Of a DNA stretch of 64,000 nucleotides, positions 6,506 through 64,000 are shown one piece after another (the stretch's first letter is position 1; each line of letters starts with the position of its first letter). The DNA lies in assembly GCA_050613775.1 (NCBI GenBank), contig JBODTK010000120.1:124001-188000 (forward strand), in the 5' to 3' direction. The translations under genes and the position numbers were made by a program. The notes beneath the pieces are model-generated. The model worked only from the letters and a program-made list of their open reading frames with translations. It was not told where the DNA came from and did no database searches. This DNA comes from Neocallimastix sp. 'constans'. Its lineage: Eukaryota.

Positions 6506-6550
6506 TTTTTTTTTTAATAGATATTCATTAAATATATTTTAATTATATAT

Positions 6551-9190: not shown

Positions 9191-9221
<31 letters not shown>

Positions 9222-15539: not shown

Positions 15540-15583
<44 letters not shown>

Positions 15584-16872: not shown

Positions 16873-16903
<31 letters not shown>

Positions 16904-33135: not shown

Positions 33136-33419
33136 TAAATTAAATTAAAGAATTTCATAATAGTTTATAAATTTGAAGTATTATTTATTTCATTATGAAA
33201 TAAATTAATTAAATTTAAATAAATTTATTTCATAAAATAATTATTCTCTAAAAATACTGAATTTTATATATATATAAATTTTATTTTATTTTATTTTATT
33301 TTATTTTAATCAAAGAGCTTCAATAAAAGATTAACATAAAATTTTTAATATATATTATTATAAAATTTATAGTAAATATTATTAAATAGTAAAGAAAAAG
33401 AAAAATTAATCCATAATAA

Positions 33420-38443: not shown

Positions 38444-38494
38444 TTATTTTTATGAAAAATAATAAAATTAACATTATTTGTTCATTCCTTAACA
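38444..38494 (-). mobile_element. Terminal 51-bp remnant of a Y-family LTR (X)
   Basis: Nearly identical to the last ~51 bp of 38499-39424; ends CCTTAACA. Confidence 0.65.
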
Positions 38495-38498
38495 AATT

Positions 38499-39424
38499 TG
38501 TTGAGGTTCGGGACAGAATAATAATAAATATAGAAATAAACACTAAAATAAAAAAATGAAAAAATTAAAATATATCTTTTTTTTAAAATATTTTATTTAT
38601 TTATTTATTTAATAAAAATTATTCAATTAAAACTAAAAATAATTTAATTTCTTCAATAAGATTATCTTTTTCAAGATTATTTTTCTCAAATACAATTTTC
38701 TCATCTATTTATATATTTTTTTTTTAATCGTTAGAAATGGTCAAGCCATTTCTTTAGAATATTTTAGAGTTACATGTTTGAATTGTATTTGAATTATAAA
38801 TTCATAATCTATTCTATTATAATAAATAATTATTATATATTATTAAATTCTAAACTATTTATTATTAATTGTAGTGATAATATATTTTAAAAATAATTTT
38901 ATTATTGTTACAGAACTATTAATAATAGAGTATTATTTAATTTTATACTATTTTTAAATAAAAGTATTTTAGATTATTATCTATTATTAATCTTATTATA
39001 AATAGGGTGTATTTTGGAAGGAAGTATTAATAATTTTAATGACAAGGATCATGGATTTAAGTAAAATATTTTTAAATCATTATTAATTATATTAATTTTT
39101 ATTAATAATAAATAATCTGTATTAGTAATATTTGTAAAATAAAATTTTCTTTAATAATAAAATATTGATAGAATAAATCATATTAATAAAACTAGATATT
39201 GATAATAATATTGATATTAATAATATAGTATTAATTTTAATAATAAAATATTGATATTGATAAAGAATTTATATTAATAATAATAATTTTAATATTAGTA
39301 ATAATTTGGCAGTAATAGAACATAAGAAAGTTCTCCAGGTAAGGAAATAAATAATTTAATTTTAGTGGTTAAGTTATTTTTATGAAAAATAATAAAATTA
39401 ACATTATTTATTCATTTCTTAACA
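38499..39424 (-). mobile_element. Solo LTR Y
   Basis: TGTTGAGG..TTCTTAACA termini, flanked by 4-nt spacers AATT and TTTT that separate it from the neighbouring LTRs. Confidence 0.7.
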
Positions 39425-39428
39425 TTTT

Positions 39429-40218
39429 TGGTATGGTTCATATAATTTTAGGAATATAATAATAATTAACACAAATAATAAAATTACAATAAAAAAAAAA
39501 TAATTTGTTTTAAAATCAATATTTATTTATTTAAATTTATAAAAGAAAAATAATAATATAATTATTTATTTAATAAAAGTAAGTTATTGATTATATTTTA
39601 TTTCACTAAAAATTACATGTATTTATATTTTTTTATCAAATTAAAATTTGTAAAGCCTAACTATTTTTTTTAATAAACTAATTACTAATTATTTTTATAA
39701 ATAAAACATTTAAATTGAAATTGAATTATTATTTTAGTTAATAATATTATTGTTATAAATAGTAGTTATATATTATTGAATTATTAATTATTTAATAATA
39801 GTTTAATACTAATATATATAAAATAAAAATAAAGAGATTATACAGAATATTTTATTGTGATTTAGTTAAATTTAGTAATTAAAAATAAATTTAAATTGAT
39901 AACGAAAATTTTAATAACTAATTAAATAGATTTGATTATTTTCAATATAACATAATACAAAAGAAATATAATATTAATATATTAAGTGGGCAAGGACAAT
40001 ATTCTTGGCTAAAGATTTTTAATACATTATAATGGAATCGGATCGATAATTCAAAAAGGAATTATAAGTTAATTAGTGATTTATTAACTTAAGATTTCTA
40101 TTTAGTAATATTTGAAGAATATTGGAAAGTTCCAATTATATAGAATAGAATAATCTATAAGGTTAGAATAATTTATATTATTCTAGCACAATTAGTATTA
40201 TTTGTTCATTCTGTATTA
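39429..40218 (-). mobile_element. Solo LTR Z with decayed termini
   Basis: TGGTATGG..CTGTATTA are transition variants of TGATACGG..CCGTATCA. TTTT lies on both sides. Subterminal TTATTTGTTCATTC is shared with X and nearly so with Y. Confidence 0.65.
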
Positions 40219-40849
40219 TTTTTGATACGGGCTGGGGTTGAAACACTAAGATATTCAAAACAAAAAAATAAATATTAACACATAACTATAAAAATAAGTT
40301 TGGAAACAAGAAAAAATTAAATTTTAAAATATTCTTTATTTAAATTTAAAATTAAAATTATTTGTTCCCAGTATTAAAAAGAAAGAAATTTATTCTTCTT
40401 TTTATACTTTTATTTTAATACATTTTATTTATTATTAATATATTCTTTATAAAAAAAAAAACTATTATAACTATTTTATTTTAATTTTTAACTATTATTT
40501 TAAATTATTTTTTTAAAAAAAAAAAATAACATTTATTAAATTAAAATATAAAAAATTAATTTGGAGCTTGTATCACGAAGGGCATTCCGGGCGGTAGCTT
40601 CTTCTTGATATTGTTATTCAGAGAGAGAATTATACAGAATTGATATTTTCTGTATTTTAGATCATTTTTATTATTGGAATTCTTCTGTATTTTAGTTCAT
40701 TTTTATTTTAATAAAGATTTAATATATTTTTAATTTTTGTTTTATTTTTAGTTTATTTCAAAGGTTTTAGAAAATATTATACAGAAACTTATAATTCTGT
40801 ATTTTACATCAAATATTTATTGAAATAGGTTTTTATTATTCTTAATATA

Positions 40850-41375
40850 AAAATAAGAATTAGTAATGATTTAAATATTATATAATTTTTAATAAGAATA
40901 TTTAGTAATAATTTTTATTATATTTAATATTAATAAAATATTTAATAATTATTTTTATTAGATTTGATATTAATAAAAGATTTTAATAAGAATATTTAAT
41001 AATAATTTTTATTATATTTAATATTAATAAAAGAATTTTATAAGAATATTTAATAATAATTTTTATTATAAAAGATTTTAATAAGAATATTTAATAATAA
41101 TTTTTATTATATTTGATATTAATAAAAGATTTTAATAAGAATATTTAATAATAATTTTTATTATATTTAATATTAATAAAAGAATTTTATAAGAATATTT
41201 AATAATAATTTTTATTATAAAAGATTTTAATAAGAATATTTAATAATAATTTTTATTATATTTAATATTAATAAAAGAAATTTATAAGAATATTTAATAA
41301 TAATTTTTATTATATTTGATATTAATAAAAGATTTTAATAAGAATATTTAATAATAATTTTATTTTATTATTATT
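40850..41375. repeat. AT-rich minisatellite (~54-bp and ~39-bp units) in the U3 region of LTR A; longer version at about 57435-58118
   Basis: Recurrent ATAAGAATATTTAATAATAATTTTTATTATA units. Confidence 0.9.
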
Positions 41376-41435
41376 AAGAGTATTTAATAGGAAATACAAG
41401 GTATTTAGTGACACCCCGTATCATAATCTCCCCGC

Positions 41436-44400
41436 TTAAGATGAGACTTCGTCCCCTGAAGTCTGATTATACCAAGTATAATAATGAACAAGATTTTTCT
41501 GGTGTACATTTCTGTCAGCTATTTCACCAGTGTAAATATCACAAATACAAGCGGTATTATAATTCATTTGAACAATTCTAAAAGGACCAGTGTAAAAGGG
41601 GTCTAACTTTCTTCTTGAGAAATTTCTAACTAAAACTAAGTCCCCTGGTTCAAAAACAGTATTCATAGATTTTTGTTGTTTTCTTCTATTTTCCCATAAT
41701 TTATTAGCATTATCAATATTAGCAGTGGCTTCCATAATCCATTTATGATGAGTTGTAATTTTTCTAATTAAATATTCATCAAAGGTTTCATTTATATTTC
41801 TATCATTATATGCAATTGTTAATTCGAATGGTTGTAGATCAGTTCTACCATATAAGAGTTCAAAACTAGAAAATTTTGTAACTTCACTTTTGCAAGTTCT
41901 TAAGGCCCATAAAGCAACTGGAAGAATTTCATCCCAATTCTTTTCTGTTCCTCCAAGTAGTCTAATATATTTTATAATTTCTCTATTTCTATTTTCAACT
42001 TGGCCATTACTTTCAGGATGGTAAGTACTGATGTAATGAACATAAACATTATATAAATCTAAAAATCCTTTTGTAGCATTGGAAGTAAATTGCGGACCAT
42101 TATCAGTGATTAAAATTTCAGGAATGCCATGTCGAGAAAATACATTAGTAAGAAACTTAATAACGTCTTTAGATTCAATTGTAGGAAATGGTTCGGCTTC
42201 TACCCATTTTGTAAAATAATCAACTAAAACAATTATGTATTTATTATTTGATTTAGTGATAGGTAAGGGTCCTATAATGTCTAAACCAACTCGAGTAAAG
42301 GGTAAACCTGGTTTAGTAGCAAATGATTCAGTACCTCTATTAATTGGTTGTGGTCTGTTCATTTGACAATCATGGCAAGTTTTAACAAGTAATTCTACGT
42401 CTTTGGACATGTTTTCCCAATAATATTTCCTTTTAAGTCTATCGTATGTTTTATAATAGCCTTCATGTCCAACACTATGCGCAGCTAATAATAGTTCTAT
42501 TTTCTCTTCTTTGTTTTCGACAAATTTACGAATATTTTCTCCGTCTTTAAAATATTTAATATTATCTATAATAATTATTTTCTTTTTCAAATATTCTTTA
42601 ATAGCAATACTATTATTTAATTCTTCAACTTCAGTATTATTACTATCATCATTAGTTGTAACAAAAATTATTTCATTTTCATTAAAATTATTTTCAATGG
42701 AATCTTTATTTAAAATATAATAATTTTCCAATTTATTATTATCTTTACTTTTATTTAAATTAATATTATTTTCATTATAGTTATCATTAATTTTAGAATT
42801 ACATATATTAAGATTTTTATTATAAGAATTTTCAGAAATATTAATTAAAGGATTTTTATCAAAATTATTTTCATAAAAATTTTTAATACAATTTTTATTA
42901 ATATTGTTATAATTAAGTTTTTCAGAAAAATTTTTAATATTATTTTGATTATGGTTACAAAATTCCTTTGAAAATTTTTTAATATCGTTACTACTATTAT
43001 TACAATTATTATCAAAATTTTCTAAATAAAAATTTTTGTCATTATTATTATTATTATTAAATTTTTCATAATAACTATTAACACTGGAATTATTATTTAA
43101 ATTTTTAAAAATATAATTATTATTATTATTATTATTATTTAATTTATTTAAAGAATTAATTATATTATTATCTAAATTATTTTTATTAAAATTAACGTAA
43201 TTATTTTCTTCAGAAATATTATTTATAGGATAATCATTTTTATTTGTATTATTCATTCTATTTATATTTTCAATAGAATCGTAATTAATATTTTCATTAT
43301 TATTCAAATGAATAAAAAAAGTATTATTTTTAATTTCTTTATTAATATTTTTAGAGTCAGGAATTAATCGAGAAAGTGCATCAGCAATAACATTTTTCTT
43401 TCCTTGTTCATATTTAACTACAATTTTTAACATACTAAAAGTTATAACCCATCTAGCTTGACGAGCATTATTTGGTTCTTTATTATTAAATAAGCCTATT
43501 AAAGGTTTATGATCAGTATATAAAATAGTATCATATTTATTACCACTAAAATATGGTTTAAATTTTAAACAACAATAATAAGCAGCTGTGCCTTCTAAAT
43601 CAGTAATACTATAATTTATTTCAGTAGGTTTTAAAGATCTACTAATGTATTGAATTGGATGTTCGATGTTATCTTTATCTTTCTGCATTAATACACCACC
43701 TATTCCATCTAATGAAGCATCCGTTCTAATTAAAAATTGTTTATCATAATCTGGATATTTAAGAATAGGAGCTTCAATAAGTTTTTCCTTAAGAATTTTA
43801 AATCTTTCTTCAGTTATATCATCCCAGATATATTTTATATTTTTCTTTAATAGTTTAAATAATGGTTGAGCAATTATAGCAAAATCTTTAATAAATTTTC
43901 TATAATATCCAATTGCACCTAAGAAAGATCTTAATTGAGTAATATTTTTAGGTGATTCCCATTTGGATATTACATCTACCTTTTTGGGTACTGGCTTTAT
44001 ACCTTCTGTGGATAAAATATGGCCTAATACTTCAACTTCTTGTTTAATAAAATGGCATTTTGATAAATTAGGCTTTAGACCATTTTCTTTAATAATATCA
44101 AAAACTTTTTGTAGATCCAATGTGTGTTGTTCTAAGGTATCAGAAAATATTACTAAATCATCCATATAAATGAACATACATTTACCAATTAAAGGCAAGA
44201 ATATTCTGTTCATTTCACGTTGGAAAGTTGCAGGAGCATTACAAAGTCCGAATGGCATAACTTTGTAATTATAATTTCCAAACATTGTTGTAAAGCAAGT
44301 TTTATCTCTGTCTTCTTTTTCCATAGGAATCTGATGGAAACCAGAAAATAAGTCAAGCGTGGTTAAGTACTTAACTTTATTGCCTATAGAAAATAATATT

Positions 44401-46977
44401 TCTTCTATATAAGGTAAAGGATATGCGTCTTTAATAGTAATATCATTTAATTTTCTATAATCCACTACCATTCTCCATTTACCATTCTTTTTAGGAACGA
44501 GAATAACTGGGAACGACCATGATGATTTTGAAGGTTCTATCAATCCATTTCTTAATAATTTACTTATTTCTTCTCTTAGTATACTCATTTGCTTCTTATT
44601 TGCTACTCGATACATTCTTTGTTTAATTGGCATTCGACCACTTATGATTTTTATTTTATGACTTAGTAATTTCGATTTATCTAAATCATCTGTATCAAGT
44701 GCCAATACATTTATATTATTTAATAATAAAAACTTTAGTTTGTTTCTAATTTTTGTTGGTGCTTTCGCCGCAATTTCATGAATAGTTATTTCCTTTACAT
44801 TTTTAAAATTCTTAACAGTATTTTCAATAGAAATATCAATATTTTTGATTACACTGTTTTCATAATTCTTTTTATCATTAATTTCATTTATTTTTGTTAA
44901 TAAAGAATAATTATTTTGTAAAGAATTTTTATTATCTTTTTTGTTACCACTTATAACGAAATCATTAATATCTTTAACATGATGATTAATTTCGAAAGAA
45001 TTTTTATTATTAACATCTTCATTAAAAATTGTGGAAAAATTTTTATCACTAATAGTATTATCAACATCTTTAGAAACTATATTATCATTATTATCATTAC
45101 AAAAATTTTCAGAAGGTTTATCAGTATTAATATTATTTTTATTAAGGTTTTCAGAAAGATTATTAATATTATTTTTATTAAAAATTTCAGAAAAATTATT
45201 AATATTATTTTTATTTCCAAAAATATTATAAGGATTATTAGTATTATTAATGCTATTTAAGTTTTCATAAATATTATTAATATTATCTAAATCTTTAGAA
45301 ATATTATCAGTATTATTAACATCATATAAATTTTTAGAGAAATTATTAATATTATTTTTACTATTAAAATTTTCAGAAGAACAATTTTTATTATTAATAC
45401 TATTCGAATTATTGATATTATTTTTATTAATAGGTTTTTACAAAAATATTATTAATTCTATTATTAAAAATTTTATTAGAAAAATTTTTATTATTAAAAT
45501 TTTTATTAGATAGATTTTTACTAGGAAAATTTTTATTAGAAAAATTTTAGATATTATTATTATTATCGATATTAATTTCATTTGGATTATCATGATTATT
45601 TATAGTATTAAAATTTTTGTTAGTATTATTATTATTAATATCTTTATTAGAAGAACAATTATTATTATAAATTTTAGAAATTTTATCATTATTAATTTTA
45701 CATCCAAATACATTCTTTAAATAATTATCATTATTATTTATATTGCAAAAATTATTTCCATCTTTATCATTATGATTTCCAAAGGAATTATCAATATCAT
45801 TATTATCATTATTTTCTTCATATAAAATTTGAATATATTTATCTTCGGTGGTTAATAAATAATCAACTAGCACATCTTTATTCAATTCTTCTTCGAATTC
45901 ATCTTTAATATCATCTTCTTCATCTTCTATTTCCGTCACACTTTCAAAACTTCCTATCTTTCGTATTTCATCTGTTTTTTGATACAAGGTGTAATCAGAG
46001 AAGTCCATAATAATCTTCATTCTAACTAGCGCATCCACACCAATTAATACTTGGAAAATATCATCTTTTTCAACCAATCTAAAGATTTCCTTAGAAGTAA
46101 TATTTCCAATTGTTATTTCTATTTCATATAATTTTGAGATGAGCGTGGTATTAGTACAAGCTTGATATAAAGTTTCTTTAATAGCAGAAATTGGTTTAAA
46201 TGGAATTTTATTATTTATCATGAAGGTTTTGGTGATCATATTAATAGAAGAACAGGAATCTAAATATACTGTAGTTTCTACGTTTTCTACCTTACATTTT
46301 GTTTTTACAATCTTATCTTTCTTAATTGTTGATAAGATTGTTTCTTCATCTTCTATAATTGTTGTAAACTTTAAGGCTTTAGATAATTCAGTTCTCAATT
46401 TAGGATTGATATTGAGCAACTGTCCGATGGTAATATTAGCGAACTTATTTCCAATATCGTCCACTATATTATAATTATCTTGATTTCCTGTTATTTTTAA
46501 TTTTTTTGTAATATTTTCCTTATTGGATTTTTCTACCTTTTTTTCACTTGGAAGTTGTATTTCTTTAGCTAATTCTTTTATTTCTTTTGCTCTTTCTTTC
46601 TTGTTTCTTCTTTTTGCTTCTTCAATTGAGGGTTCATTTATAAAAGATGGATCAAGATGATTTAACGCTTCTGTTTCTTTTTGATTTTCATTTCCTTTAT
46701 TATTACTATTAGTTTCACTTTCTGGTTCCATTTCCATTTGTTCCTGATTATTTGATGGAACTTTAATTGGTTGAGGATTTTCTTTTAAACTTTTCTTAGT
46801 TGCTTTCTTATATGGTTTATTTTCATTAGTTTTTCTACTTCTTCTTTCAGCTACAATGGCTATTTCTTTATTATCTTCTATATTCGAAGATTCTTTAGTT
46901 CCAGTAAGTGAATTAGTTAAAAGAGTTGTATTGGTTTGATTTATGGGAGTATTCCTTCTCCCATTTAGAAGTTTAAA
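41436..46977 (-). pseudogene. pol: pro-pol of element A (protease, RT, RNase H, integrase), interrupted in the Asn-rich PR-RT linker
   Basis: Protease YLDSCSSIN; RT LDLFSGFHQI, MPFGL, YMDD; RNase H TDAS, TDHKPL; integrase HSVGH..CHDC, DDE core, GPF. In-frame TAA at 45547-45549 and a frame change near 45445. Confidence 0.88.
46943..46977 (-). promoter_or_regulatory. Programmed -1 ribosomal frameshift signal (gag to pro-pol)
   Basis: Slippery T TTA AAC (46977-46971) at the gag end, 6-nt spacer, then stem ATGGGAG/CTCCCAT. The -1 frame is open for 80 codons into ORF 45547-46737. Confidence 0.85.
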
Positions 46978-48294
46978 GGTTGATTATTGTTATTAAAGAA
47001 ATTTTGGTTATTATTAATAGGATCTATGTTATTATGATTAGGATTTGAACTGTTATAACTAGTATTATTATAATTAGTATTAACATTAAAGTTTCCATTT
47101 GAGTTATAATTATTTACATTATTAGTATTAATATTAGAGTTTCTATTTAAATTACTAATATTATAATTACCATCATAGTTATTATTATTGTTTAGGTTAT
47201 GATTACTGTTTGTATTGCTGTTATTTGTAATGTAGAGATTATTGTTATTAAGTCTTCCAGTAGCTTCCATATCAGCTAGTTCTTGATAAGTATAAGGACA
47301 ATCTTGCATCCTATGACCAGGTTGATGACATTTAAAACAATTTAGATTAATATTATTAGACATAAAATTTTGATTTCTTAAATTATTTTTAATTCCGGGT
47401 ACTTTATTATTGCTAAAATTATTATTCATGTTGTTAAAATTTGGATTATTGTTATTATAATTATTACCACTATTATAACCATTTCGGAAATGATTTATAT
47501 TTCTGTTATTAATAGAGTTATTATAATTATTATTATAAGAATTTCGATAATTATTATTATAATTATTTGAATGATTATAACCATTATTTTTATTATAATT
47601 ATTATAATTATTATAGTTATAATTATTATAATTAGAGCGATAATTATTGTATTCATAATTATTAGGATTGTCATAATTTCTATTATTATAATTATTACTA
47701 TAATTATTTGGAAAAATAGAATTTAGACCTCCATAAGTATTGGTAAACATAACGACATTTCTATTTCTATTGGGCATTTCAGAAGCAGTCTCTGCAAGTT
47801 CAGCTATTTTAAATGCTTCTTCTAAATTAGCTGGTTGAGAATTTATTACTTCCTTTCTAGCATATGGACGACCTAATAATGAATCCGTGTAATCATTAAT
47901 AGTAATAAATGCTTGACTTTCTGGAGTAAGTGATCCGTATAATTTACCGTATCTCCAGTTAAAGTCTTTAATTGATTCACCCTTTTGTATTTTGAGTGAT
48001 TTTAGGTTAAAGCATTTTTCTTGAGGAGTAATATCTAAAAATTTTTTCAATGGCAGTTTTAATATCCGTAATACTTGGATATATGATCATTTCAGCCTCT
48101 TCATCTTCTTCTTTAAGATCTTCAATTACTCCTTTTAATCGTCCAGGAACACATTCTTTTGCCCAAGCAAACATTTTTCTAGGGTCATCAATATCTGAGA
48201 GTTCCATTACTCTATTGAACTCTTCAGCCCATGATTCTATGTCCCTATCGAAACTACCAAGTCGTGGCAATAATTTAGCTATTTCGCTAATCTT

Positions 48295-48297
<3 letters not shown>
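46965..48297 (-). pseudogene. gag: gag of element A with a one-base frameshift in an A-run near 48045
   Basis: ATG at 48297 (MKISEIAKLL) after a long poly-A run. Removing one A joins it to ORF 46965-48050, which has a CCHC knuckle (CFKCHQPGHRMQDC) and Asn-rich tracts. Confidence 0.8.
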
Positions 48298-48360
<63 letters not shown>

Positions 48361-48499
48361 AAGAACACAAAAGAACACAAAATTGCTTAAATAGAAACGA
48401 ATATAAAAAAATTTTTTTTTTTTTTTTTTTTTTTTATTTAATATTATTTAAAAATTGTGTTTTACAGGAAATTTATTTATAAGTATATATATAGAAATT

Positions 48500-48551
<52 letters not shown>

Positions 48552-48769
48552 TTTTAACAAAAAAAATAAATGATAAAGTAAATCCTATTAAAAGGAAAAT
48601 AATTATTATAGAAGATTTTTTTTTTATATGGATTTTAAAAAAAATGATGAAGTAAATCTTATTAAAAAGGAAGACAAATATTAATGAAGAAAATTAGTAT
48701 ATTTTTTTTTGTATATATTTTAATAAGGGACAATCAAATATATGTTATAACTTTATTATTATTTTCGAT

Positions 48770-48950
48770 TCCCGCAAGCATTTACTCTGCGTCTTTCGAC
48801 CTCCACTATTTAACCGTCAGTTCCAAGTAACCTTTAACTGTTCCTGCCTATTGAAACAAGGGCTTTATGGATTTTTCAATTAAAGGTCTGATATTGAAAC
48901 CTTATTAAATAGCGCTCTACTCCCCCGCTTATACAAGTAAACGCTCTTAT
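48770..48950 (-). ncRNA. Candidate structured cis-acting RNA domain in the 5' leader of element A
   Basis: GC-richer island with three nested 9-10 bp helices containing G-U pairs and a GTC-GAAA-GAC GNRA hairpin. Confidence 0.55.
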
Positions 48951-49452
48951 CTACTCTCTAATAAAAAGTTATTTTAATAATTTATTATACCTGAATTTAA
49001 TCAAGCCACTAATAAATTACCATATATTGTATATTTCCGGAAAACGATGCTGATTTTAGAAATAATTAATAATAATAATTTTTATTTAATTAATAATACG
49101 GAATTACTTAATTCACCTATCCCAATCGATGAGCCTTTAGCTATAGAGTTTTTCATCTAACAGCCGCTCTCCCTGATGGTAGGTACTGAATGAATTTAGT
49201 ATTCTAATATTAAGAAAATAAAAATTTAAAATTAATAATTATAAAACTTATTTATTATTGTTGAATAAAACTAATTATTCCAAGTTTTTCAATATCTTGA
49301 AAAATCCTCTTGATAGACTTTCCAGATAGAACAAACTCTCTTGATGGAAGTAATTATTTTAATAATAAATAAGAATTGAGCGGAAGTGCTCTTCTAAAAT
49401 GTAATTTTTTTTTTTTTTTTTTTTTTTTGAATTATTATATATAAATAATATA

Positions 49453-49486
<34 letters not shown>

Positions 49487-49575
49487 TTTTTATATTATTA
49501 TTATTTTTATTATTATTATAAGTAAAAATAAATGTTTTATTATAACAAATAAAATTTACGAATTAAGTTTCACAA

Positions 49576-49607
<32 letters not shown>

Positions 49608-49776
49608 GTATAAAATTTGTGTAACTAAGTAAAAAAAATTAAATAATTTTTCCAAAAAAAAATTAAAGTTTTATAAATTTTATATTCCCTATAACAAAAT
49701 AATAAGTTTAAATAAAAAAAATTATATGTTTAATATTTATTCTAATGTTTCTTTTCATCTTATAATGTGTTTCAGG

Positions 49777-49794
49777 CGCCCGGATTCTCCACCA
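49777..49794 (-). other. Primer-binding site of element A (tRNA-Ala-like), separated from its 5' LTR by insertion of element B
   Basis: TGGTGGAGAATCCGGGCG. Its last bases form part of the CCAAA TSD of element B. Confidence 0.9.
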
Positions 49795-50577
49795 AATGTA
49801 AAATGTTCCTTATGGAGCAGATTACAATTACGAAAAAAAAACAAAAACAACACTATCAATAACAATACTCAAATGAAATTTATTTTTTAAAAAAAATTCT
49901 TTTATTAATCACTTTATTATAAAAATTCTTTTTATTAGTTATTAACTGCAAAATAGTTAATAACAACTACATTTTCTTTAATAGAATAATTTTACATGTA
50001 TTTATATTTTTTCTTAATTATATTATAATATACTATTTCTATTTATTTAAATATATATTCAATATAAAATAAACAAAAACTAATCTAAAATTAAATAAAG
50101 TTATAAAAAACTAAAACTAATTCAATAAGCTTTTTATTCAATTTGTTTTGACTCAAATTGAATAAGTTCTTATTTATTATTTATTTATTATTCTTTTATT
50201 ATTAATACTATTAATTATATATTACAATTTAATTTTTATGATTATTAAACTAAACTAAAATTAAACTAAACTAAAATTAAACTAAACTAAAATTAAACTA
50301 AACTAAAATTAAACTAAACTAAAATTATTAATATATTTTATTACTAAATTTTAGGTTATTTAAAAATTAATTTTATATTTTTAAATTTATATATTATATG
50401 AAATATAAATTTATTATTAATTTTCATAAATCAATTAATTTCATAAATTAATATATTTTACATAATTTAATGCATTAGCATTATTTTGTAAACGTGAATT
50501 ACATTAAATAATTTAATGTACAAAATAAATTAATTAATGTACTAAAGATATTGATCATATCTTTACAATCTCGCCCT

Positions 50578-53500: not shown

Positions 53501-55416
53501 CAATCATATTCTCTATGGGGAGGTAATTTATCACAATTCTTTTCATCAAAAACTTCAATATAATCGAGATAACAAGGAGGAATAGAAATTTTATTATCAC
53601 TATCGTTAACAATATTATTATTATCTAAATTCTGAATAATCAGACAGTTACACAAATTGTCTAACACACAATTTTGATAAGAAAAAAAATAGTTTGTTGG
53701 TTCGGCGACCAATTTACTTTCTTTATTTAAAATTTCATTTTTACATGATATAATAAAATTACATGATTTTTTGATTTTATCTATTGTACTAAGTTCTCTA
53801 AAATTACAAAAGTTAATTTTTTCTTTACTACAATCATTATCTTTAACACTAATATTAATACTATCACTATCACTATCACTATCACTATCATTAATGGTTC
53901 TAACTTTTCTTCCACGGACGTATTCAGCTTCGCTTTCTGATTCGGAATCCCAGAGGGGTTTACACTTATATGGAGTACTTGGTTCATAGGAATTTTCTTC
54001 TTCAGGTTCGATATCGATCTTACACTTCTTTGAACCTTTCTTGCTTCTATTTTTGTTTTTTCTTTTTCTTTTACCATTATTACAGTTCCTAGCGCAATAA
54101 CCAGAAGGAAAGGATATTTTTCTTGAATCATGATAATTCATTGGACAATGCTTTTCAATCCAAGGAATACCTAGAATGATATCTACATCAGGAATATAAA
54201 GTGCATAGAGTTGAATAACTTCAAAATGGTTCTTGAATCGTAAGATACACTTTTCAGTTTGTTCGTAGATGGTAGAGATACCATATCCTAGTCCAGTAAC
54301 ATTGAAAGATCTTTTAACTTCATTCAATTTAATTTTGTTTTTATTAACGAACGAAGGATGAATAAAATTCAAATCCGAGCCAGAGTCGATAAGAACCCTA
54401 ACTGGAACTTCTTCAATATCATTTGTTTTTATATAGAAAGTAATTATATTGTTCTTTCTTTTATTCATAGCATTTTCTTCATCAGTAATAGCTCTAATTT
54501 TTTGAGCATCATCGGATTCCTTGATCATTCTAATTCTTCTTAATTTTGCCGATGGAAGATTTTCATCTGTTTCTCTAATTTTATTCTTGTGTTTAACTCC
54601 AGAAGGTCTTTTTCTGTTAGGACAATTAAACTGTAAGTGTCCTGGTTGTTTACATAAAAAACAAAGACCTTTTTTCTTTTCTTCAGAAAAGTCTCTTTTA
54701 TTTTCAACATATAAATTTTGATTATAGTTCTGGTTGTATCTTCTATATCTATCATTTTTGATCCTAAATAAATCAACATCCATAGGATCATCACGACGAC
54801 TACTATTTCTCTGGTTGTGGTTACTGTTTTGTTGCGAATTTCTAACTCGTTGCTGATTATAATAGAATTCAACAAGATTAGTTCGCTTTGACAAATTTTC
54901 AATTTGAATTACATCGGTATACAACTTGTTAAGGGAATCTGGATTTGGGTTAACAACGGCTAATTGTTCCCTCATTTTGTAATGTAATCCTTTAAGAAAC
55001 ATATAAATTTTGGCTGATTCGTTGAAGTCCGAATTTTGGCAAGTTGTTTTGAACTGGTTAATATATTCTAACACTTGCCCATATTTTTTCTGACGAATGG
55101 TATCTAATTTACCATTAGCCACAATTGTCTCCACTTCTGGATCCCCATAATTAATTTTAAGTTCCCTCTTAAAATTATTTAAATTATCGATCAAGGGATC
55201 TTCATTATCCCATAGATTTGAGGCCCAATTTAAAGGATCACCTCTTAAGAATGAGGTTATAAATCTAACCTTTGATCTATCGTCTGGAAAGTCATCTGGG
55301 GTATCCTCAAAGTTCATATTTACAATTGTGAGGAACCCTTTAAGTTCTTTTCTTTCACCGTTAAAAATCGGTGGCTTACTGACCTTCCGTTTTTCTTCTC
55401 GTCCACGTTCCGCCAT
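50578..55416 (-). CDS. Single Gag-Pol polyprotein of element B (Gag, CCHC, protease, RT, RNase H, integrase, chromodomain); intact
   Basis: First ATG at 55416 (MAERG). Motifs [49 protein letters not shown] core, GPF and chromodomain [15 protein letters not shown]. Confidence 0.95.
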
Positions 55417-55734
55417 ATCTTCAATGTGGAGGTTTCTTAGCCTAATATTAAGTTCTTCCACTTTGAAAAAATAAAATTAAAAGAATTCTTATATACGATT
55501 ATTATTTTTATTTAAATTTACTATTATAATATTATGTAAAGTCGACTTGGCTCTAACCGCTTGAAAAGGTGCCCGTCGAGTAAACAAAATTATTATAATA
55601 ATAATAAGTTTAAATAAAAATAATCTCAAATATTCCAATATAATTAGTAATCACGGCGGCGACTTAATGGGTGCAATTATAATTAGTACTTCTTCAAATA
55701 GTACTTCTTCTATTATTACTTCTTGTTTCTTCTC

Positions 55735-55975
55735 TTAGTAATTCTTCAAATGGTAGTTTTCTAATAGGTAGTTCTCTAATTGGTAATTCTCTAACTGGTA
55801 GTTTTCTAACTGGTAGTTCTCTAATTGGTAATTCTCTAACTGGTAGTTTTCTAACTGGTAGTTTTCTAACTGGTAGTTCTCTAATTGGTAGTTCTTTAAC
55901 TGGTAGTTCTTTAACTGGTAGTTCTCTAACTGGTAGTTCTTTAACTGGTAGTTCTTTAACTGGTAGTTCTCTAAT
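55735..55975. repeat. 15-bp tandem repeat (TGGTAGTTCTCTAAC), about 16 copies, in the leader of element B
   Basis: Directly visible; reads (NYQLE/K)n on the minus strand. Confidence 0.95.
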
Positions 55976-56011
55976 CTCGTGATCGTAACGTGCTCCACTT
56001 TTTATAACAAG

Positions 56012-56022
56012 GTAGTTGTTAT
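56012..56022 (-). other. 11-nt self-priming PBS of element B (ATAACAACTAC)
   Basis: Abuts the 5' LTR, does not start with TGG, and is the exact complement of LTR positions 56186-56196 on the transcript strand. Confidence 0.85.
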
Positions 56023-58123
56023 TGTAAAATGTTCCTATTGGAGCAGATTACAATTACGAAAAAAAAACAAAAACAACACTATCAATAACAATACTCAAAT
56101 GAAATTTATTTTTTAAAAAAAATTCTTTTATTAATCACTTTATTATAAAAATTCTTTTTATTAGTTATTAACTGCAAAATAGTTAATAACAACTACATTT
56201 TCTTTAATAGAATAATTTTACATGTATTTATATTTTTTCTTAATTATATTATAATATACTATTTCTATTTATTTAAATATATATTCAATATAAAATAAAC
56301 AAAAACTAATCTAAAATTAAATAAAGTTATAAAAAACTAAAACTAATTCAATAAGCTTTTTATTCAATTTGTTTTGACTCAAATTGAATAAGTTCTTATT
56401 TATTATTTATTTATTATTCTTTTATTATTAATACTATTAATTATATATTACAATTTAATTTTTATGATTATTAAACTAAACTAAAATTAAACTAAACTAA
56501 AATTAAACTAAACTAAAATTAAACTAAACTAAAATTAAACTAAACTAAAATTATTAATATATTTTATTACTAAATTTTAGGTTATTTAAAAATTAATTTT
56601 ATATTTTTAAATTTATATATTATATGAAATATAAATTTATTATTAATTTTCATAAATCAATTAATTTCATAAATTAATATATTTTACATAATTTAATGCA
56701 TTAGCATTATTTTGTAAACGTGAATTACATTAAATAATTTAATGTACAAAATAAATTAATTAATGTACTAAAGATATTGATCATATCTTTACACCAAATT
56801 TTTATGATACGGGCTGGGGTTGAAACACTAAGATATTCAAAACAAAAAAATAAATATTAACACATAACTATAAAAATAAGTTTGGAAACAAGAAAAAATT
56901 AAATTTTAAAATATTCTTTATTTAAATTTAAAATTAAAATTATTTGTTCCCAGTATTAAAAAGAAAGAAATTTATTCTTCTTTTTATACTTTTATTTTAA
57001 TACATTTTATTTATTATTAATATATTCTTTATAAAAAAAAAAACTATTATAACTATTTTATTTTAATTTTTAACTATTATTTTAAATTATTTTTTTAAAA
57101 AAAAAAAATAACATTTATTAAATTAAAATATAAAAAATTAATTTGGAGCTTGTATCACGAAGGGCATTCCGGGCGGTAGCTTCTTCTTGATATTGTTATT
57201 CAGAGAGAGAATTATACAGAATTGATATTTTCTGTATTTTAGATCATTTTTATTATTGGAATTCTTCTGTATTTTAGTTCATTTTTATTTTAATAAAGAT
57301 TTAATTTATTTTTAATTTTTGTTTTATTTTTAGTTTATTTCAAAGGTTTTAGAAAATATTATACAGAAACTTATAATTCTGTATTTTACATCAAATATTT
57401 ATTGAAATAGGTTTTTATTATTCTTAATATAAAAATAAGAATTAGTAATGATTTAAATATTATATAATTTTTAATAAGAATATTTAGTAATAATTTTTAT
57501 TATATTTAATATTAATAAAATATTTAATAATTATTTTTATTAGATTTGATATTAATAAAAGATTTTAATAAGAATATTTAATAATAATTTTTATTATATT
57601 TAATATTAATAAAAGAATTTTATAAGAATATTTAATAATAATTTTTATTATAAAAGATTTTAATAAGAATATTTAATAATAATTTTTATTATATTTGATA
57701 TTAATAAAAGATTTTAATAAGAATATTTAATAATAATTTTTATTATATTTAATATTAATAAAAGAATTTTATAAGAATATTTAATAATAATTTTTATTAT
57801 AAAAGATTTTAATAAGAATATTTAATAATAATTTTTATTATATTTAATATTAATAAAAGAAATTTATAAGAATATTTAATAATAATTTTTTATTATATTT
57901 AATATTAATAAAAGAAATTTATAAGAATATTTAATAATAATTTTTTATTATATTTAATATTAATAAAAGAAATTTATAAGAATATTTAATAATAATTATT
58001 ATTATATTTAATATTAATAAAAGAAATTTATAAGAATATTTAATAATAATTTTTATTATATTTGATATTAATAAAAGATTTTAATAAGAATATTTAATAA
58101 TAATTTTATTTTATTATTATTAA

Positions 58124-58783
58124 TGTTAAGATAATAACTGAATTTCAATTCAATTTCAATTTCGATAATTCAGTTATTTGAATTTCAATATTAATAAATA
58201 ATAATAATATAATAATTATTATTAAATTAACTTTATTAAAATATTTAGGAATTAGTCTAGGCCAACTAATTACTAAATATTATTAACATATTGAATTTAA
58301 TATATATTAAATAATGTAAACACGTGATTGTCATATTAAATTAATTTCTACATATTATATTTTAATTATAAATTATAATATTTAGCAATATTTGATTCTT
58401 ATATTTTATTTATATTAAATATTTATATTATTATCTAACTTTATATTATCAATATCAAACTTATATTAATATTATTTACATATTCATATTAATAATTAAT
58501 ATTTTAATAATTAATTATTTTATATATATACATGTTTAAATTCTTTTGATTAATCCTTTGTAGGATTATTGTAATTTAAATTATAGTAATAATTATATAA
58601 AATAATAATGTAATAAAATATTATTAAGATTAAATAAAATTTATATTTTAAACAAAAACTTAATTATAAAATTTACTAATAACAATATGTTTTAAATAAG
58701 AGTAAAATTAAGTTATTAATTAATTACTATAATTTGGCATCTTGACCTAATCGTTAAGAAAATATTATCTAAAAACTTTGACA
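58124..58783. mobile_element. Solo LTR (660 bp) nested in the 5' LTR of element A, TSD ATTAA
   Basis: Absent from the 3' LTR copy. TGTTAAG..TTTGACA termini, with ATTAA at 58119-58123 and 58784-58788. Confidence 0.9.
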
Positions 58784-58838
58784 ATTAAGAGTATTTAATA
58801 GGAAATACAAGGTATTTAGTGACACCCCGTATCATTTA

Positions 58839-59563
58839 TGGTGCAGGTACACAATAAACTTCAAAAAAAAAATGAAAATAATATATTAGTTAATAATTTA
58901 ATTTCAATTTCCAGTTTTTTTTATTTTTTTTAACTCCTCCTTTTTTATTAAGTATTTTCTTTTTCTTTTATACTTTTTTACTACATGAATTTTTATAATA
59001 ATTTAAATTATTTTAATTCTTATTAGTATAATTATTACATGTGATTTTAAATAATATTTTTTAAGAGTTATTTTAATAATAAAAATATTAATACTAATAT
59101 AATTAATATTATCTTTAATGACAAATATTATTAATGATAAAATTAAAAAATTTAACAATAAAATTATTGGTAATATTTTTGATAATATAATTCTTGAAAC
59201 AATTTAATATTAATAATAATTAAATATAATAATAAAACAATTTAATTAATATAAGATAATAATTATTTAATAATTAGTCATTTATCAATTTAATTAAATA
59301 ATGATTTTTTTAATAATTAGTCATTAATCAATTTAATTAAATAATAATTTTTTAATAATTAGTCATTAATCAATTTAATTAAATAATAATTTTTTAATAA
59401 TTAGTCATTAATCGATTTAATTTGATAATTTATATAATTATTTTAAATTAAGAATAAAATTTTGGAATTATAAAAATAGTTTAAAATATTTAATACATAA
59501 AGTTATTAAACTTAATTATAATTTCCAATAGTATAATATGAATTATTAGTTAGTTCCGTATCA
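58839..59563 (-). mobile_element. Solo LTR C1
   Basis: TGGTGCAGG..TTCCGTATCA. A second copy starts at 60037. Internal ~42-bp repeat x4. Confidence 0.85.
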
Positions 59564-59566
59564 TTT

Positions 59567-60032
59567 TGATACGATATTTTATTTATGTATCTAAATTAAT
59601 ATTTATTTATGGGCAATGACAATAAGGAATTATGACAAAATAATATATTCTAATATTAAATAGAAATAACACATACAATAATACAAAATAAAGTAATAAA
59701 TATATCTTTTTAATGTACTCTTTATTTATTATTAATTATTAATTATTACATCAATTATTATTATTACTCTCTTACATAAATATTATAATTAATTATCTCA
59801 AATATACATAATATCTCTTTTTAACTATACTAAAATAAAATATAAAAATAGCTATTTATGTGAATTAATTTATCATAAGTATATACTTATAAATAAAAGA
59901 ATTCTCCGTTTAATAATTATTATTCTAAAATTATATATATTATTCTAAAATTATTATTGACCAATAATATTTAAGTATTTCTTTAACCTAAAGAATCTAC
60001 CTAAATACCATTTTTATAGTGGTCACGTATCA
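59567..60032 (-). mobile_element. Solo LTR E
   Basis: TGATACGA..CACGTATCA, homologous to 36771-37185. ATTT on both sides, with the left copy overlapping the terminal A of C1. Confidence 0.88.
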
Positions 60033-60036
60033 ATTT

Positions 60037-61277
60037 TGGTGCAGGTACACAATAAACTTCAAAAAAAAAAATGAAAATAATATATTAGTTAATAATTTAA
60101 TTTCACTTTCCGTTTTTTATTTTTTTAACTCCTCATTTTTTATTAAGTATTTTCTTTTTCTTTTATACTTTTTTACTACATGAATTTTTATAATAATTTA
60201 AATTATTTTAATTCTTATTAGTATTATTATTACATGTGATTTTAAATAATATTTTTTAAGAGTTATTTTAATAATAAAAATATTAATACTAATATAATTA
60301 ATATTATCTTTAATGACAAATATTATTAATGATAAAATTAAAAAATTTAACAATAAAATTATTGGTAATATTTTTGATAATATAATTCTTGAAACAATTT
60401 AATATTAATAATAATTAAATATAATAATAAAACAATTTAATTAATATAAGATAATAATTATTTAATAATTAGTCATTAATCAATTTAATTAAATAATGAT
60501 TTTTTAATAATTAGTCATTAATCAATTTAATTAAATAATAATTTTTTAATAATTAGTCATTAATCAATTTAATTTGATAATTTATATAATTATTTTAAAT
60601 TAAGTATAAAATTTTGGAATTATAAAAATAGTTTAAAATATTTAATACATAAAGTTATTAAACTTAATTATAATTTCCAATAGTATAATACGAATTATTA
60701 GTTAGTTCCGTATTGTAACAGATACATGGTAACTTCAAGCCTATCCAATGATAGTTCTTTGGTTACGTAACGTATCTCTAAACAGCTAGCAATTTCGGCT
60801 AATCAAATAAAATCTTTTATGACTTTCGTACATTAAATTTTATTATTTTATAAATAATTATATAGTTAAATATTTATTTAAATATATTTTATTTAGTGAT
60901 TAGTAAACTAAGTTAAATTAAATTATTTACCAATCATAATGTTATTGACATGTATAAATAATAATTGAACTTGTAACTGTAACGCACTAGCGTTACTATT
61001 AACGTAAATTGTTATTATAAATATTAATATTAATAAATAAAATTATAATTATTAAATAAAAAATATTACTCAGTGTAAGCCCAGTAACTGATAACAAATA
61101 GAGTTATAAAGTACTGCGCTATACTCTCGTGTAAAAAGAAATAATAATCACAGAATTAATTAATTTGGTGTTTATTATTAACAACTCGAATAGAGAGGTG
61201 TTAAGTTATCTTAGCCTTTAGATTTAGTTATTATTCGTTATTTTAGTTAATAATAAACTTACCTTTTACACGTATCA
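60037..61277 (-). mobile_element. Solo LTR C2, its last bases split off by insertion F
   Basis: Alignable to C1 with one fewer ~42-bp unit. The terminus CCGTAT|CA is restored after removing 60714-61270 and one TSD copy. Confidence 0.85.
60714..61270. mobile_element. Solo LTR F, TSD CGTAT
   Basis: TGTAACAG..CTTTTACA, with CGTAT at 60709-60713 and 61271-61275. Confidence 0.88.
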
Positions 61278-61278
61278 A

Positions 61279-61760
61279 TGTAAGAAATTACTTATAAAAT
61301 TAATTATAAATAATTTCTTAACTACAAATTAACATTAATTATTACTAATTAACATTAATTTGAGAAAATAAAATTAAATATAATTAAATAAATATGAAAT
61401 AATATAAATAAATAATTATACTTAACTTAAATATAAGATAGAGTTTATTATAGAAAGTTTATAATAAACAATAACACAAAAGGAATAAAAGACACAAATA
61501 TTTATAAAAAATGTTTTATTAAAAGGGTTTTGTTTTATTAATTAATTATTTTATTTGAATTATTATTTATTATAAAAATTCTAAAATAATAACTCTTGAT
61601 TTCTCGAAGAGAACTCAAGAGAATCAAATATATATAAATTAATAATTAAATATTATTGGTTAAAATAAATACAATAATTTAATGTATTAAATTAATGTAT
61701 TAAATAAGAAAGATAGATAAATTTTATAATAAAATAATAAATTTATCTAAGTTTCTTACA
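61279..61760. mobile_element. Solo LTR G, TSD ATCAA
   Basis: Perfect 9-bp TIR TGTAAGAAA..TTTCTTACA, with ATCAA at 61274-61278 and 61761-61765. Confidence 0.9.
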
Positions 61761-61767
61761 ATCAATT

Positions 61768-62650
61768 TGTAAGAATCTATAATTATTTGCTAACAAATAA
61801 TTATATTTTCTTAGTTAAGTTATTATAACTATAACTTTATTTAATTACATATAATATTTATTAAATTTATTTAATTTAATTTTAAATATTCATTAATTTA
61901 ACAAAATTTATTTAATTAATTTTAAATAATATATTTACAATATGTTAAATTCTCTACTGTAACTAATGTATTTTGTATTGTATTCTATTCTGTATTTTAT
62001 AATGTATTCTGTATTTTATAATGTATTCTGTATTTTATTAACTATTTAATTTTATATTTTTAATATAAGGATAAATTATATGATCGAAATATCTTTTATT
62101 ATTTTATTCTTTTATTTTCGATAATTAGATTAGATTGGAAAATCGGTTAATTAAGATTTTTTCCAATTACTTTTTAGAAGTAATCGGTTTTACTTAATTA
62201 ATGCGATGATCGATATGGATAGAATATCGATCGGAAACTTATCTAGGTTTTTCTATCTAATCTTTTCCTAGATAAGAGATTTGTTAAGATTAGAAAACCC
62301 TTTCTTATTTAACCTTATTTTCATAAAAAAATATAAATAAGGCTCTTGAGTTCTCTTTGAGAAATCAAGAGTTATTATTATAAAAAAACATAGTTATAAT
62401 AGTAACATTTTTATATTTTTAACTTTAATAAATTAATAAAAATATTTTATTCAAAAACATATTTTTAAGATCAATTTATACAAACAATTCTTCTCTTACA
62501 TTTTGTGTTATTATTATAATTAATTTTATAACAAACTCTACATTAAAGGTAAAAAAATTTATTTTATTTTATTTTCTCAACTTAATGAATTAGTCGTTAA
62601 GTTGTAGTTAATAATTCTATTTTGAGTTAGTTCTTAATAGAATTATTACA
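61768..62650. mobile_element. Solo LTR H, TSD CAATT; related to G in the opposite orientation
   Basis: TGTAAGAAT..ATTATTACA, with CAATT at 61763-61767 and 62651-62655. Positions 62343-62380 are the near reverse complement of about 61586-61622. Confidence 0.85.
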
Positions 62651-62656
62651 CAATTT

Positions 62657-64000
62657 TGACAAATGTTGATTATTATCTTAATTTAGAATTTACTTCTAAA
62701 AGTGATAATAATTTGTCAATTAAAAGGGTAGTTATTAACACAAAAATGTTAATTAAAACACTACAGTTTAAAATAAGAAAAGAATATTTGTTTTTTTTTT
62801 ATAATAAAACTTTATTTATCAATATAAAATTGTACCTTTTATTATTTTGAATATTTATATTCTTAATAAAAAGTATTTAAAATAAATGAGAATAAAAGAA
62901 AATAATTTATTAAAACTTAAATTTTAAATTTTTAATTCTTGAATTCTGATTTTTTATTTTTAAAGAAATATTTACATGTTTTTAAATTTTTCTTTTAAGT
63001 TTAAATTATTTAAAATAAAACTATATAATTATTTTAAGTAAACACTTTTAAGATAAAATAAACAATTTTGTTATTATTAATAAGTTTCTTTTTAATTAAT
63101 ATTAATATCAATTTAAACTGAGATTTAATTTAAAATCGTTAAAGTAAAATAAAAGAATAATTTAATATAAAATACATTGTTCTTTAAATTAAAATAATAT
63201 TTATTTAATAATTTTAAATCTTTTAATTTATTTTTATTAAAATATTATTTTTTAATTATCAATAACTAATTAAGAGGGTTATTATTTAATTTTATTGATT
63301 TTTCTTAATTTATAATTTGGTTATTTATCAATTCCTCCACCATCAGATTGAACTTCGTCTCTTGAAGTTGTAATATTTCCTTCTCTTATTGTATATGGAT
63401 AAACATTTTTAATATGTACGTTTCTTGCAAGTAATTTTCCAGTTTGTGGGTCTTCTAATACTACTGTGTTGAATTTTGGTTCTTTTACAACCCTAAATGG
63501 TCCGTAAAAGTAAGGGTCTAATTTTGTCCTGTTAATTAATCTTATCATCACATAGTCTCCAATTTTGTATTGTTTCTTTAAGGCTTTATTGAAACCTATT
63601 CTGTGTTTCCAATATTTATTAGCATATTCTGAATATCCTATTGCTTCTTTTACCCATTTGTAATGTCTTAAAAATCTTCGAAAATTAAATTCGTCTTCTG
63701 TTTCTCCTTCTTCTTGGTGAATATCCGGAAATATGATTTCCATTGGCCAAGTATCCCTTCTTCCATATAATAGTTCAAAACTGCTGAATTTAGTTTTTGA
63801 ACTTTTTGTTGTTCTAAGTGCCCATAAGACTGATGGAAGACATTCGTCCCATTCCTGTTCTTCCGTTATTAATAATAGTAATATTTTTCCAATCTCTCTA
63901 TTTCTGTTTTCTATCATTCCATTTGATTGTGGATGGTGTGGTGCAGTAAAATGTACCCATGATCCATATAAATCGATCATCATTTTTGTAATATCCGAAA
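62657..64000 (-). mobile_element. Ty3/gypsy element D (related to A): 3' LTR 62657-63330 plus integrase end; continues beyond the window
   Basis: TGACAAAT..ATTTATCA termini and PPT GGTGGAGG 3 nt from the LTR. Confidence 0.85.
63321..64000 (-). CDS. pol: C-terminal part of the integrase of element D
   Basis: HPQSNGMIENRNREI, LWALRT, TKFSSFELLYGR, GPF and TSRDEV parallel the element A integrase (HPESNGQVENRNREI..TSGDEV). The stop codon lies 10 nt inside the LTR. Confidence 0.92.
   Translation of the reverse strand, partial: SDITKMMIDLYGSWVHFTAPHHPQSNGMIENRNREIGKILLLLITEEQEWDECLPSVLWALRTTKSSKTKFSSFELLYGRRDTWPMEIIFPDIHQEEGETEDEFNFRRFLRHYKWVKEAIGYSEYANKYWKHRIGFNKALKKQYKIGDYVMIRLINRTKLDPYFYGPFRVVKEPKFNTVVLEDPQTGKLLARNVHIKNVYPYTIREGNITTSRDEVQSDGGGIDK

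What the first reader, a model, noticed from the sequence alone, without database searches (positions are those of the whole stretch)
38444..63330. Head-to-tail stack of co-oriented LTR elements separated by only 3-4 nt: apparent LTR-end-targeted integration
Seen: after removing nested 5-bp-TSD insertions, the region reads X-AATT-Y-TTTT-Z-TTTT-[element A]-TTTA-C1-TTT-E-ATTT-C2-ATTT-D, with no host DNA between members. At least six different LTR sequences take part. Orientation is directly established for A, D and E (ORFs, PBS). It is inferred to be the same for X, Y, Z and C from shared subterminal motifs and repeat position. Random nesting would interrupt elements internally rather than abut them seven times in a row. 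Inference: this clade integrates site-specifically with a 4-bp TSD at the end of a resident LTR. Alternatively it integrates at a fixed site that pushes older copies outward, as Ty3 does at Pol III start sites; no tRNA or 5S gene is visible in this window. I do not know of a description of this in anaerobic fungi.
Basis: partly seen in the sequence, partly recalled or inferred. Interest (0 to 1): 0.92.

Follow-up and report, generated by a model that had tools for sequence, protein, structure and literature searches.

The report
Retrotransposon pile-up before fungal tRNA genes
A gut fungus carries a real chain of retrotransposon ends joined head to tail by only 3-4 bases, most likely because a little-known retrotransposon lineage keeps inserting at one spot about 16 bases in front of a tRNA-type gene and pushes older copies outward, as yeast Ty3 does.

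Summary
The stack is real. All seven junctions (3-4 nt, A/T only) are in the sequence, and five of six nested inserts have perfect 5-bp TSDs. A and D belong to one chromodomain-less Ty3/gypsy lineage, seen here only in gut-fungal-type DNA and not close to Ty3. In two other samples a clade LTR starts 17 nt (L023) and 15 nt (run X4, only 12 nt seen) before a tRNA-like 5' end, both pointing away from it. New: a second LTR type sits exactly 51 nt inside the U3 end of three unrelated LTRs, and three chromovirus-like LTRs lie within 6 nt of one junction. So position, not sequence, is being measured. The anchor of this stack is not in the window, no genome is held, and only two direct anchor loci were seen. 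The scan noted 16-bp tRNA-Leu stacking before on another probable gut-fungal genome (e1-8067551). Verdict: new variant of Pol III-gene-targeted LTR retrotransposition; my literature searches found no report for anaerobic fungi.

The parts
36749..36766 (-). 18-nt tRNA primer-binding site (Ala-type; identity recalled) behind LTR E0; internal region beyond it is largely lost
   Evidence: same 18 nt as the site of element A
36771..37185 (-). E0: E-family LTR, cut by ins0 at the point 51 nt (with TSD) from its U3 end
   Evidence: 96.6% to E
37186..38443 (.). ins0: 1258-nt TG..CA insert of the TGTTAA..TGACA type; flanks differ, likely a recombinant of two copies with loss of the DNA between E0 and X
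   Evidence: recombination is inferred
38444..38494 (-). X: 51-nt U3-end remnant of a Y-family LTR
   Evidence: 49 of 51 identical to Y tail
38499..39424 (-). Y solo LTR (926 nt)
   Evidence: 70% over 312 nt to L023 LTR
39429..40218 (-). Z solo LTR (790 nt), decayed U3 terminus
   Evidence: 78% over 108 nt to L023 LTR
40223..41423 (-). 3' LTR of element A (1201 nt, internal tandem repeats)
41424..49776 (-). Internal region of A: PPT, pol (RT, RNase H, integrase without chromodomain; 41436-45437), protease-like ORF (45547-46983), gag in two frames (46965-48297)
49777..49794 (-). tRNA primer-binding site of A, followed by an 8-nt A/T spacer that B interrupts
   Evidence: spacers of 2-9 nt in L023, L077, L078, L083, L148
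49797..56793 (-). Element B: full-length chromovirus, LTRs 769/771 identical, TSD CCAAA, single 1632-aa ORF, likely self-priming
56805..58834 (-). 5' LTR of element A, interrupted by insA
58124..58783 (.). insA: 660-nt solo LTR (TGTTAA..TGACA type), TSD ATTAA, 51 nt inside the U3 end of A
58839..59563 (-). C1 solo LTR (725 nt)
   Evidence: 99.1% to C2; primer site side
59567..60032 (-). E solo LTR (466 nt), ATTT on both sides if the last base of C1 is counted
60037..60713 (-). C2 solo LTR; its last two bases lie behind F at 61276-77
60714..61270 (.). F solo LTR (557 nt), TSD CGTAT
   Evidence: relative in L078
61279..61760 (.). G solo LTR (482 nt), TSD ATCAA
   Evidence: 68% to H on the opposite strand
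61768..62650 (.). H solo LTR (883 nt), TSD CAATT
62657..63330 (-). 3' LTR of element D (674 nt)
63331..64000 (-). PPT and integrase 3' part of D; runs off the window
   Evidence: 59% to A integrase over 88 aa

Best explanation
The stack is a run of LTRs of one gut-fungal Ty3/gypsy lineage that likely integrates at a fixed distance, about 15-17 nt, upstream of a tRNA-type Pol III gene predicted to lie beyond element D, so that each newcomer lands flush against the previous one. Shown: the junctions, the shared orientation, 4-bp repeats around E, C2 and Z, the lineage of A and D, and two other loci where a clade LTR faces a tRNA-like 5' end back to back. Inferred: the integrase is positioned by the Pol III initiation machinery (as for Ty3 and DGLT-A), cuts 4 bp apart and always in one orientation, U3 next to the gene and element transcribed away from it; a 1-2 nt wobble gives the TTTT, TTTA, TTT and ATTT spacers; LTR-LTR recombination then leaves solo LTRs and removes some junctions. 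Two other element types likely used the same landmark while a given LTR was nearest to it: the TGTTAA..TGACA type 51 nt further out (about 66-68 nt from the gene), and chromovirus-like F, G, H 1-6 nt further out. Age should fall from left (E0, X, Y, Z) to right (D).
For: L023: Y/Z-related LTR starts 17 nt from a sequence with A box and B box at tRNA spacing, opposite strand; it is the only such A+B match in 118,967 bases scanned (window, L023, L075-L086). Run X4: the U3 end of an E copy is followed by 15 nt and then 12 nt that read like a tRNA 5' end. Both gaps begin with a CAA like the yeast start-site motif in PMC6673722 (passages). E is flanked by ATTT twice only if C1's last base is counted, i.e. 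the cut ignored the LTR end by one base. Three unrelated LTRs are interrupted exactly 51 nt from the U3 end, with three different flank sequences (about 1e-6 if positions were uniform, computed after seeing it). F, G, H TSDs end 6, 3 and 1 nt from D. Stacks recur elsewhere: E-to-E with 4 nt between in X1, C-like LTR flush with two F-like LTRs in L078. Decayed and diverged LTRs lie on the left.
Against: No tRNA or Rfam match in the window; the anchor of this stack is unseen. The L023 sequence is cut by the contig end, has no Rfam match at E<=5 and its anticodon arm does not pair in the usual way. The X4 evidence is 12 nt of one contig. Of 5 distinct non-PPT flanks behind E's U3 end, 1 is tRNA-like, 2 are LTR-like starts and 2 are neither within 30 nt. 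Only 1 of 73 motif hits was a true relative. A's flanks differ (TTTT, TTTA) and AATT to TTTT needs lost junctions. A's LTRs are almost identical although at least seven insertions must be younger. B sits 6 nt from the U5 end of A's 5' LTR, far from any such anchor, and a G-like LTR lies inside a gag frame in L086.
Confidence: 0.72

Rival explanations
1. The resident LTR terminus is itself the landmark: the integrase of this lineage recognises or is tethered at an existing LTR end and inserts flush with it, and other elements measure from the same end; tRNA genes would only seed some stacks or none.
For: Seven flush joins among six LTR sequences; the 51-nt offset is exact relative to LTR ends; B lies 6 nt from a U5 end with no Pol III gene near; two stacks end at a primer site with an A/T spacer, and natural U5 spacers include AATT and AAAT; LTR-to-LTR joins in other samples.
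Against: Two loci show a clade LTR beside a tRNA-like gene with no LTR between. The 3-nt spacer with a TSD that overlaps the older LTR. LTR ends differ in sequence beyond about 7 nt. A fixed anchor gives the same exact offsets at one locus.
Confidence: 0.15
2. The lineage prefers a short A/T target sequence that the TSD regenerates, so repeated double insertion builds the array, as described for Drosophila tandem dimers.
For: All spacers are 3-4 A/T bases; double insertion at one site gives dimers joined by a TSD (bioRxiv 10.1101/158386, passages).
Against: Such 4-mers are everywhere in DNA of 10-20% GC; spacers differ; it does not explain one orientation, the 51-nt class or the tRNA-like neighbours.
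Confidence: 0.06
3. The array is an assembly artefact or the product of recombination and ligation of cDNA ends in a repeat-rich region.
For: No listed contig piece bridges a window junction; mismatched flanks of ins0 and A show that recombination did act; long homopolymers make single-base spacer errors possible.
Against: Five perfect 5-bp TSDs, three of them overlapping one another at the C2-D join; host genes on the left are collinear; same kinds of joins in independent samples.
Confidence: 0.07

Closest known systems
Ty3 of Saccharomyces cerevisiae (Ty3/gypsy, Pol III start-site targeting)
   Same: Distance: Ty3 TSD ends within 20 bp of the tRNA 5' end (PMC6673722 passages); here 15 and 17 nt. 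Same gene order RT-RNase H-integrase.
   Different: Ty3 makes 5-bp TSDs and inserts in both orientations; here 4 bp and one orientation. A's integrase scores 62 bits to Ty3 against 109 to foamy-virus integrase, while chromovirus B scores 194.
DGLT-A elements of dictyostelid amoebae
   Same: No chromodomain, short integrase tail, 10-34 bp upstream of tRNA genes, several elements at one gene; D. lacteum DGLT-A.1/2 at 55-65 bp is a precedent for the far class (PMC5006619 section 6 part 1).
   Different: DGLT-A inserts in either orientation (PMC5911963 passage); kinship with the gut-fungal lineage was not tested, as no DGLT-A sequence came up.
Tj1 of Schizosaccharomyces japonicus
   Same: Fixed orientation just upstream of Pol III genes (PMC4600332 passages).
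   Different: Tj1 points the same way as the gene, has a 5-bp TSD and self-primes; this lineage points away, has 4-bp TSDs and tRNA primer sites.
Tandem TE dimers by double insertion (Drosophila; bioRxiv 10.1101/158386)
   Same: Head-to-tail copies separated by one TSD.
   Different: Those are same-family dimers; here at least six LTR sequences alternate.

Membership tests
Ty3/gypsy LTR retrotransposon (elements A, D) | LTRs with TG..CA, primer site, PPT, and pol order protease-RT-RNase H-integrase | tested here: met
   for D only LTR, PPT and integrase end are in the window
Chromovirus (A, D) | Chromodomain and Tf2-type SH3 at the integrase C-terminus | tested here: not met
   no such Pfam hit in A or in the first 110 hits; separate side of a 99% SH-aLRT branch
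Chromovirus (B) | Chromodomain and Tf2-type SH3 at the integrase C-terminus | tested here: met
   SH3_Tf2-1; chromobox matches; relatives carry PF00385
Ty3 proper | Close integrase kinship to Ty3 | tested here: not met
   62 bits, below foamy-virus integrase at 109
Ty3 proper | 5-bp TSD | tested here: not met
   4-bp repeats around E, C2, Z
Pol III-gene-targeted LTR retrotransposons (Ty3, Tj1, DGLT-A type behaviour) | Insertions 10-35 nt upstream of tRNA 5' ends | tested here: inconclusive
   met at two outside loci, one unrecognised by Rfam and one 12 nt long; anchor of the window stack not visible
Pol III-gene-targeted LTR retrotransposons (Ty3, Tj1, DGLT-A type behaviour) | Genome-wide enrichment at Pol III genes | not testable with these tools
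   no genome held
Pol III-gene-targeted LTR retrotransposons (Ty3, Tj1, DGLT-A type behaviour) | Integrase or RNase H binds TFIIIB, TFIIIC or Pol III | not tested
   no host factor sequence was at hand
DGLT-A | Groups with DGLT-A in an RT/integrase tree | not tested
   no DGLT-A sequence among the proteins fetched

The most novel reading that the evidence does not exclude
Once seeded, the stack grows by itself: a resident LTR end, not a host Pol III gene, is the ruler. One lineage cuts flush with it in fixed orientation, a second exactly 51 nt inside it, and chromoviruses within 6 nt of it, which would be an LTR-end-guided integration system shared by unrelated retrotransposons.
Probability: 0.15. 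Interest if true: 0.88.

Novelty: new variant of a known kind. Interest (0 to 1): 0.57.

Why it matters
It would add an early-branching fungal phylum and a lineage unrelated to Ty3 to the independent inventions of tRNA-gene targeting, with a fixed orientation opposite to Tj1 (the Tj1 paper knew no other wild-type LTR element with fixed orientation). The stacks are ordered records of insertion history at single-base resolution, and three element types appear to share one landmark at set distances. A site-specific native integrase would also be a lead for gene delivery in anaerobic fungi, which are hard to engineer (own knowledge).

Tried and rejected
No genome held, so no genome-wide count. ARAGORN and Rfam found nothing in the window; no A+B box pair in it. 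Motif scan of metagenome contigs: 72 of 73 hits showed no similarity to the LTRs and were dropped as chance. Viral contigs: one distant hit, then none. Of 14 loci from genome contigs, L075-L086 are clade elements; none holds a tRNA; most end inside the element. L077 and L083 show PPT-LTR-primer site, which I set aside as probably collapsed assemblies. L087 and L088 are distant and were not used. DNA searches of five handle genomes gave mostly low-complexity matches. The idea that A's 5' LTR is a solo LTR with TSD TTTA was rejected: 7-9 nt A/T spacers are natural in relatives. Contig depths were not used as copy numbers. F-H, H-H and H-F joints have odd letters between and were treated as leads only. 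Earlier-findings look-ups by place and sequence were empty.
Full report
Setting. The window is 9-39% GC by kilobase and its left part encodes GH5 cellulases with CBM10 domains, which points to an anaerobic gut fungus (inference from known gene families). No genome is held, so evidence from outside the window came from public contigs and runs.

Observation. In + coordinates: X|AATT|Y|TTTT|Z|TTTT|A ... A|TTTA|C1|TTT|E|ATTT|C2|ATTT|D, the last after discounting three nested LTRs. Boundaries rest on homology: A's LTRs have 1200 matches, 1 mismatch and one 164-nt indel in a tandem repeat; C1/C2 are 99.1% and E/E0 96.6% identical, and the 51-nt X remnant matches Y at 49 of 51. Five of six nested inserts have perfect 5-bp TSDs; ins0 does not. 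No tRNA, Rfam family or A+B box pair is in the window.

What the elements are. A is a Ty3/gypsy element with RT, RNase H and integrase but no chromodomain. A search with its integrase gave 404 hits; of the 120 listed, 110 are 46-78% identical, two are named as Pecoramyces/Orpinomyces gene models, and the rest fall to 28-35%. In a quick tree of the integrase core (64 rows: 37 of those 110, all 10 distant hits, 14 of 120 B hits, and A, B, D; SH-aLRT only, careful search unfinished, D fills 38% of columns) A and D lie inside one 99% group apart from chromoviruses. Ty3, Tj1 and DGLT-A were not in the tree. Against solved structures A scores 109 bits to foamy-virus integrase and 62 to Ty3; B scores 194 to Ty3 and matches chromobox domains. 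E shares A's kind of PPT and integrase end. C, Y and Z have relatives with tRNA primer sites (L078, L023), which fixes their orientation. F, G, H share B's terminal motifs, but no BLAST match to B was found, so calling them chromovirus-like is an inference.

Position is measured. Three things show a ruler. First, E is flanked by ATTT on both sides only if the last base of C1 is counted, which explains the single 3-nt spacer. Second, inserts of the TGTTAA..TGACA type interrupt A's 5' LTR, X and E0 at exactly 51 nt from the U3 end, with three different flank sequences. The chance under uniform placement is about 1e-6, a figure computed after the pattern was seen; two of the three points are the two ends of one probably recombinant insert. 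Third, the TSDs of F, G and H end 6, 3 and 1 nt from D.

What the ruler starts from. A degenerate LTR-end motif gave 73 hits in metagenome contigs; 72 were chance and one, L023, is a Y/Z relative. Its U3 end lies 17 nt from a sequence on the opposite strand with an A box at +8 and a B box at tRNA spacing, the only such match in 118,967 bases scanned. It is cut by the contig end, has no Rfam match and does not fold as a normal cloverleaf, so I call it tRNA-like. Contigs of four runs laid on the E/C2 junction gave 19 of 21 loose-end rows; 14 lie behind E's U3 end. They reduce to E's own PPT, two unusable mixed rows, and five other flanks: one with 15 nt and then 12 nt like a tRNA 5' end (run X4), one G-like LTR start after 3 nt, one start with only the clade's terminal motif after 5 nt, and two that are neither tRNA nor clear LTR. 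One search adds an E-to-E join with 4 nt between in run X1, and L078 shows a C-like LTR flush with two F-like LTRs. In both anchor loci U3 faces the gene's 5' end and the element points away. For the window this predicts a Pol III gene on the + strand beyond D. An earlier AI note of this scan (e1-8067551, unchecked) reports two LTR elements at the same four bases 16 bp before a tRNA-Leu gene in another probable gut fungus; it agrees but is not counted as evidence.

Against this reading. The anchor of this stack is unseen. A's flanks differ by one base, and the step from AATT to TTTT needs junctions lost by recombination. A's LTRs are nearly identical although C1, E, C2, F, G, H and D must be younger, which needs fast turnover. 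B lies 6 nt from the U5 end of A's 5' LTR, about 2 kb from where the anchor would have been, and a G-like LTR sits inside a gag frame in L086; so the 5-bp chromovirus-like group is not strictly targeted, and an LTR-end effect is not excluded. The runs hold at most 62% of the sampled words, so they are other strains or partial assemblies; none of the pieces listed bridges a window junction.

Comparison with the literature. I read passages of PMC5911963, PMC4600332, PMC6101501, PMC6673722, bioRxiv 10.1101/158386, and passages plus section 6 part 1 of PMC5006619. Ty3 inserts within 20 bp of tRNA 5' ends with a 5-bp TSD in both orientations; DGLT-A at 13-33 bp in either orientation, with D. lacteum relatives at 55-65 bp and several elements at one gene; Tj1 in a fixed orientation, same direction as the gene. 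The element here works like these, but fails membership in Ty3 (TSD, integrase kinship) and is not a chromovirus. Seven searches for anaerobic-fungal retrotransposons or this geometry returned nothing on the subject; the library holds open-licence papers only and appears to lack the gut-fungal genome papers, so absence from print is not established. No supplements were read.

Verdict. Real feature; most likely repeated, orientation-fixed, 4-bp-TSD integration just upstream of a Pol III gene by a gut-fungal Ty3/gypsy lineage, with a second type 51 nt further out (0.72). New variant of a known kind. LTR-end-guided integration remains at about 0.15.

Noticed in passing
L023:1-59 (minus strand): tRNA-like sequence with A and B boxes at tRNA spacing but no Rfam match and a non-pairing anticodon arm; could be a tRNA-derived SINE head or an unusual Pol III RNA of gut fungi.
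   Followed up: partly
window 56012-56022 and B LTR: B has no tRNA primer site; the 11 nt behind its 5' LTR are complementary to LTR position 598-608, as expected for Tf1-type self-priming (mechanism recalled).
   Followed up: partly
window 55694-56047 (minus): 117-aa stop-to-stop frame of short ELPVR/K repeats in the leader of B; function unknown.
   Followed up: no
window 41436-48297: A's gag and pol are split over four frames and carry long asparagine-rich low-complexity stretches between domains; some breaks may be programmed frameshifts or homopolymer errors.
   Followed up: no
window 3506-21061: Tandem cluster of four GH5 cellulase ORFs, two with double catalytic domains, three with CBM10 domains; a GH47 fragment at 852-1499.
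   Followed up: no
L075-L086; P0160: Several prokaryotic MAGs contain contigs of these fungal-type retrotransposons, and one chromovirus polyprotein is annotated as a bacterial hypothetical protein: probable binning contamination.
   Followed up: partly
L086:1-75: G-like LTR end inside the gag frame of an A-lineage element.
   Followed up: partly
P0001-P0110; window A and D: A short DEV motif ends the integrase in A, D and 26 of 110 relatives (some proteins are truncated); a candidate targeting or processing signal.
   Followed up: no
window 32532-33226: Degenerate direct repeat of about 110-nt units in host intergenic DNA.
   Followed up: no
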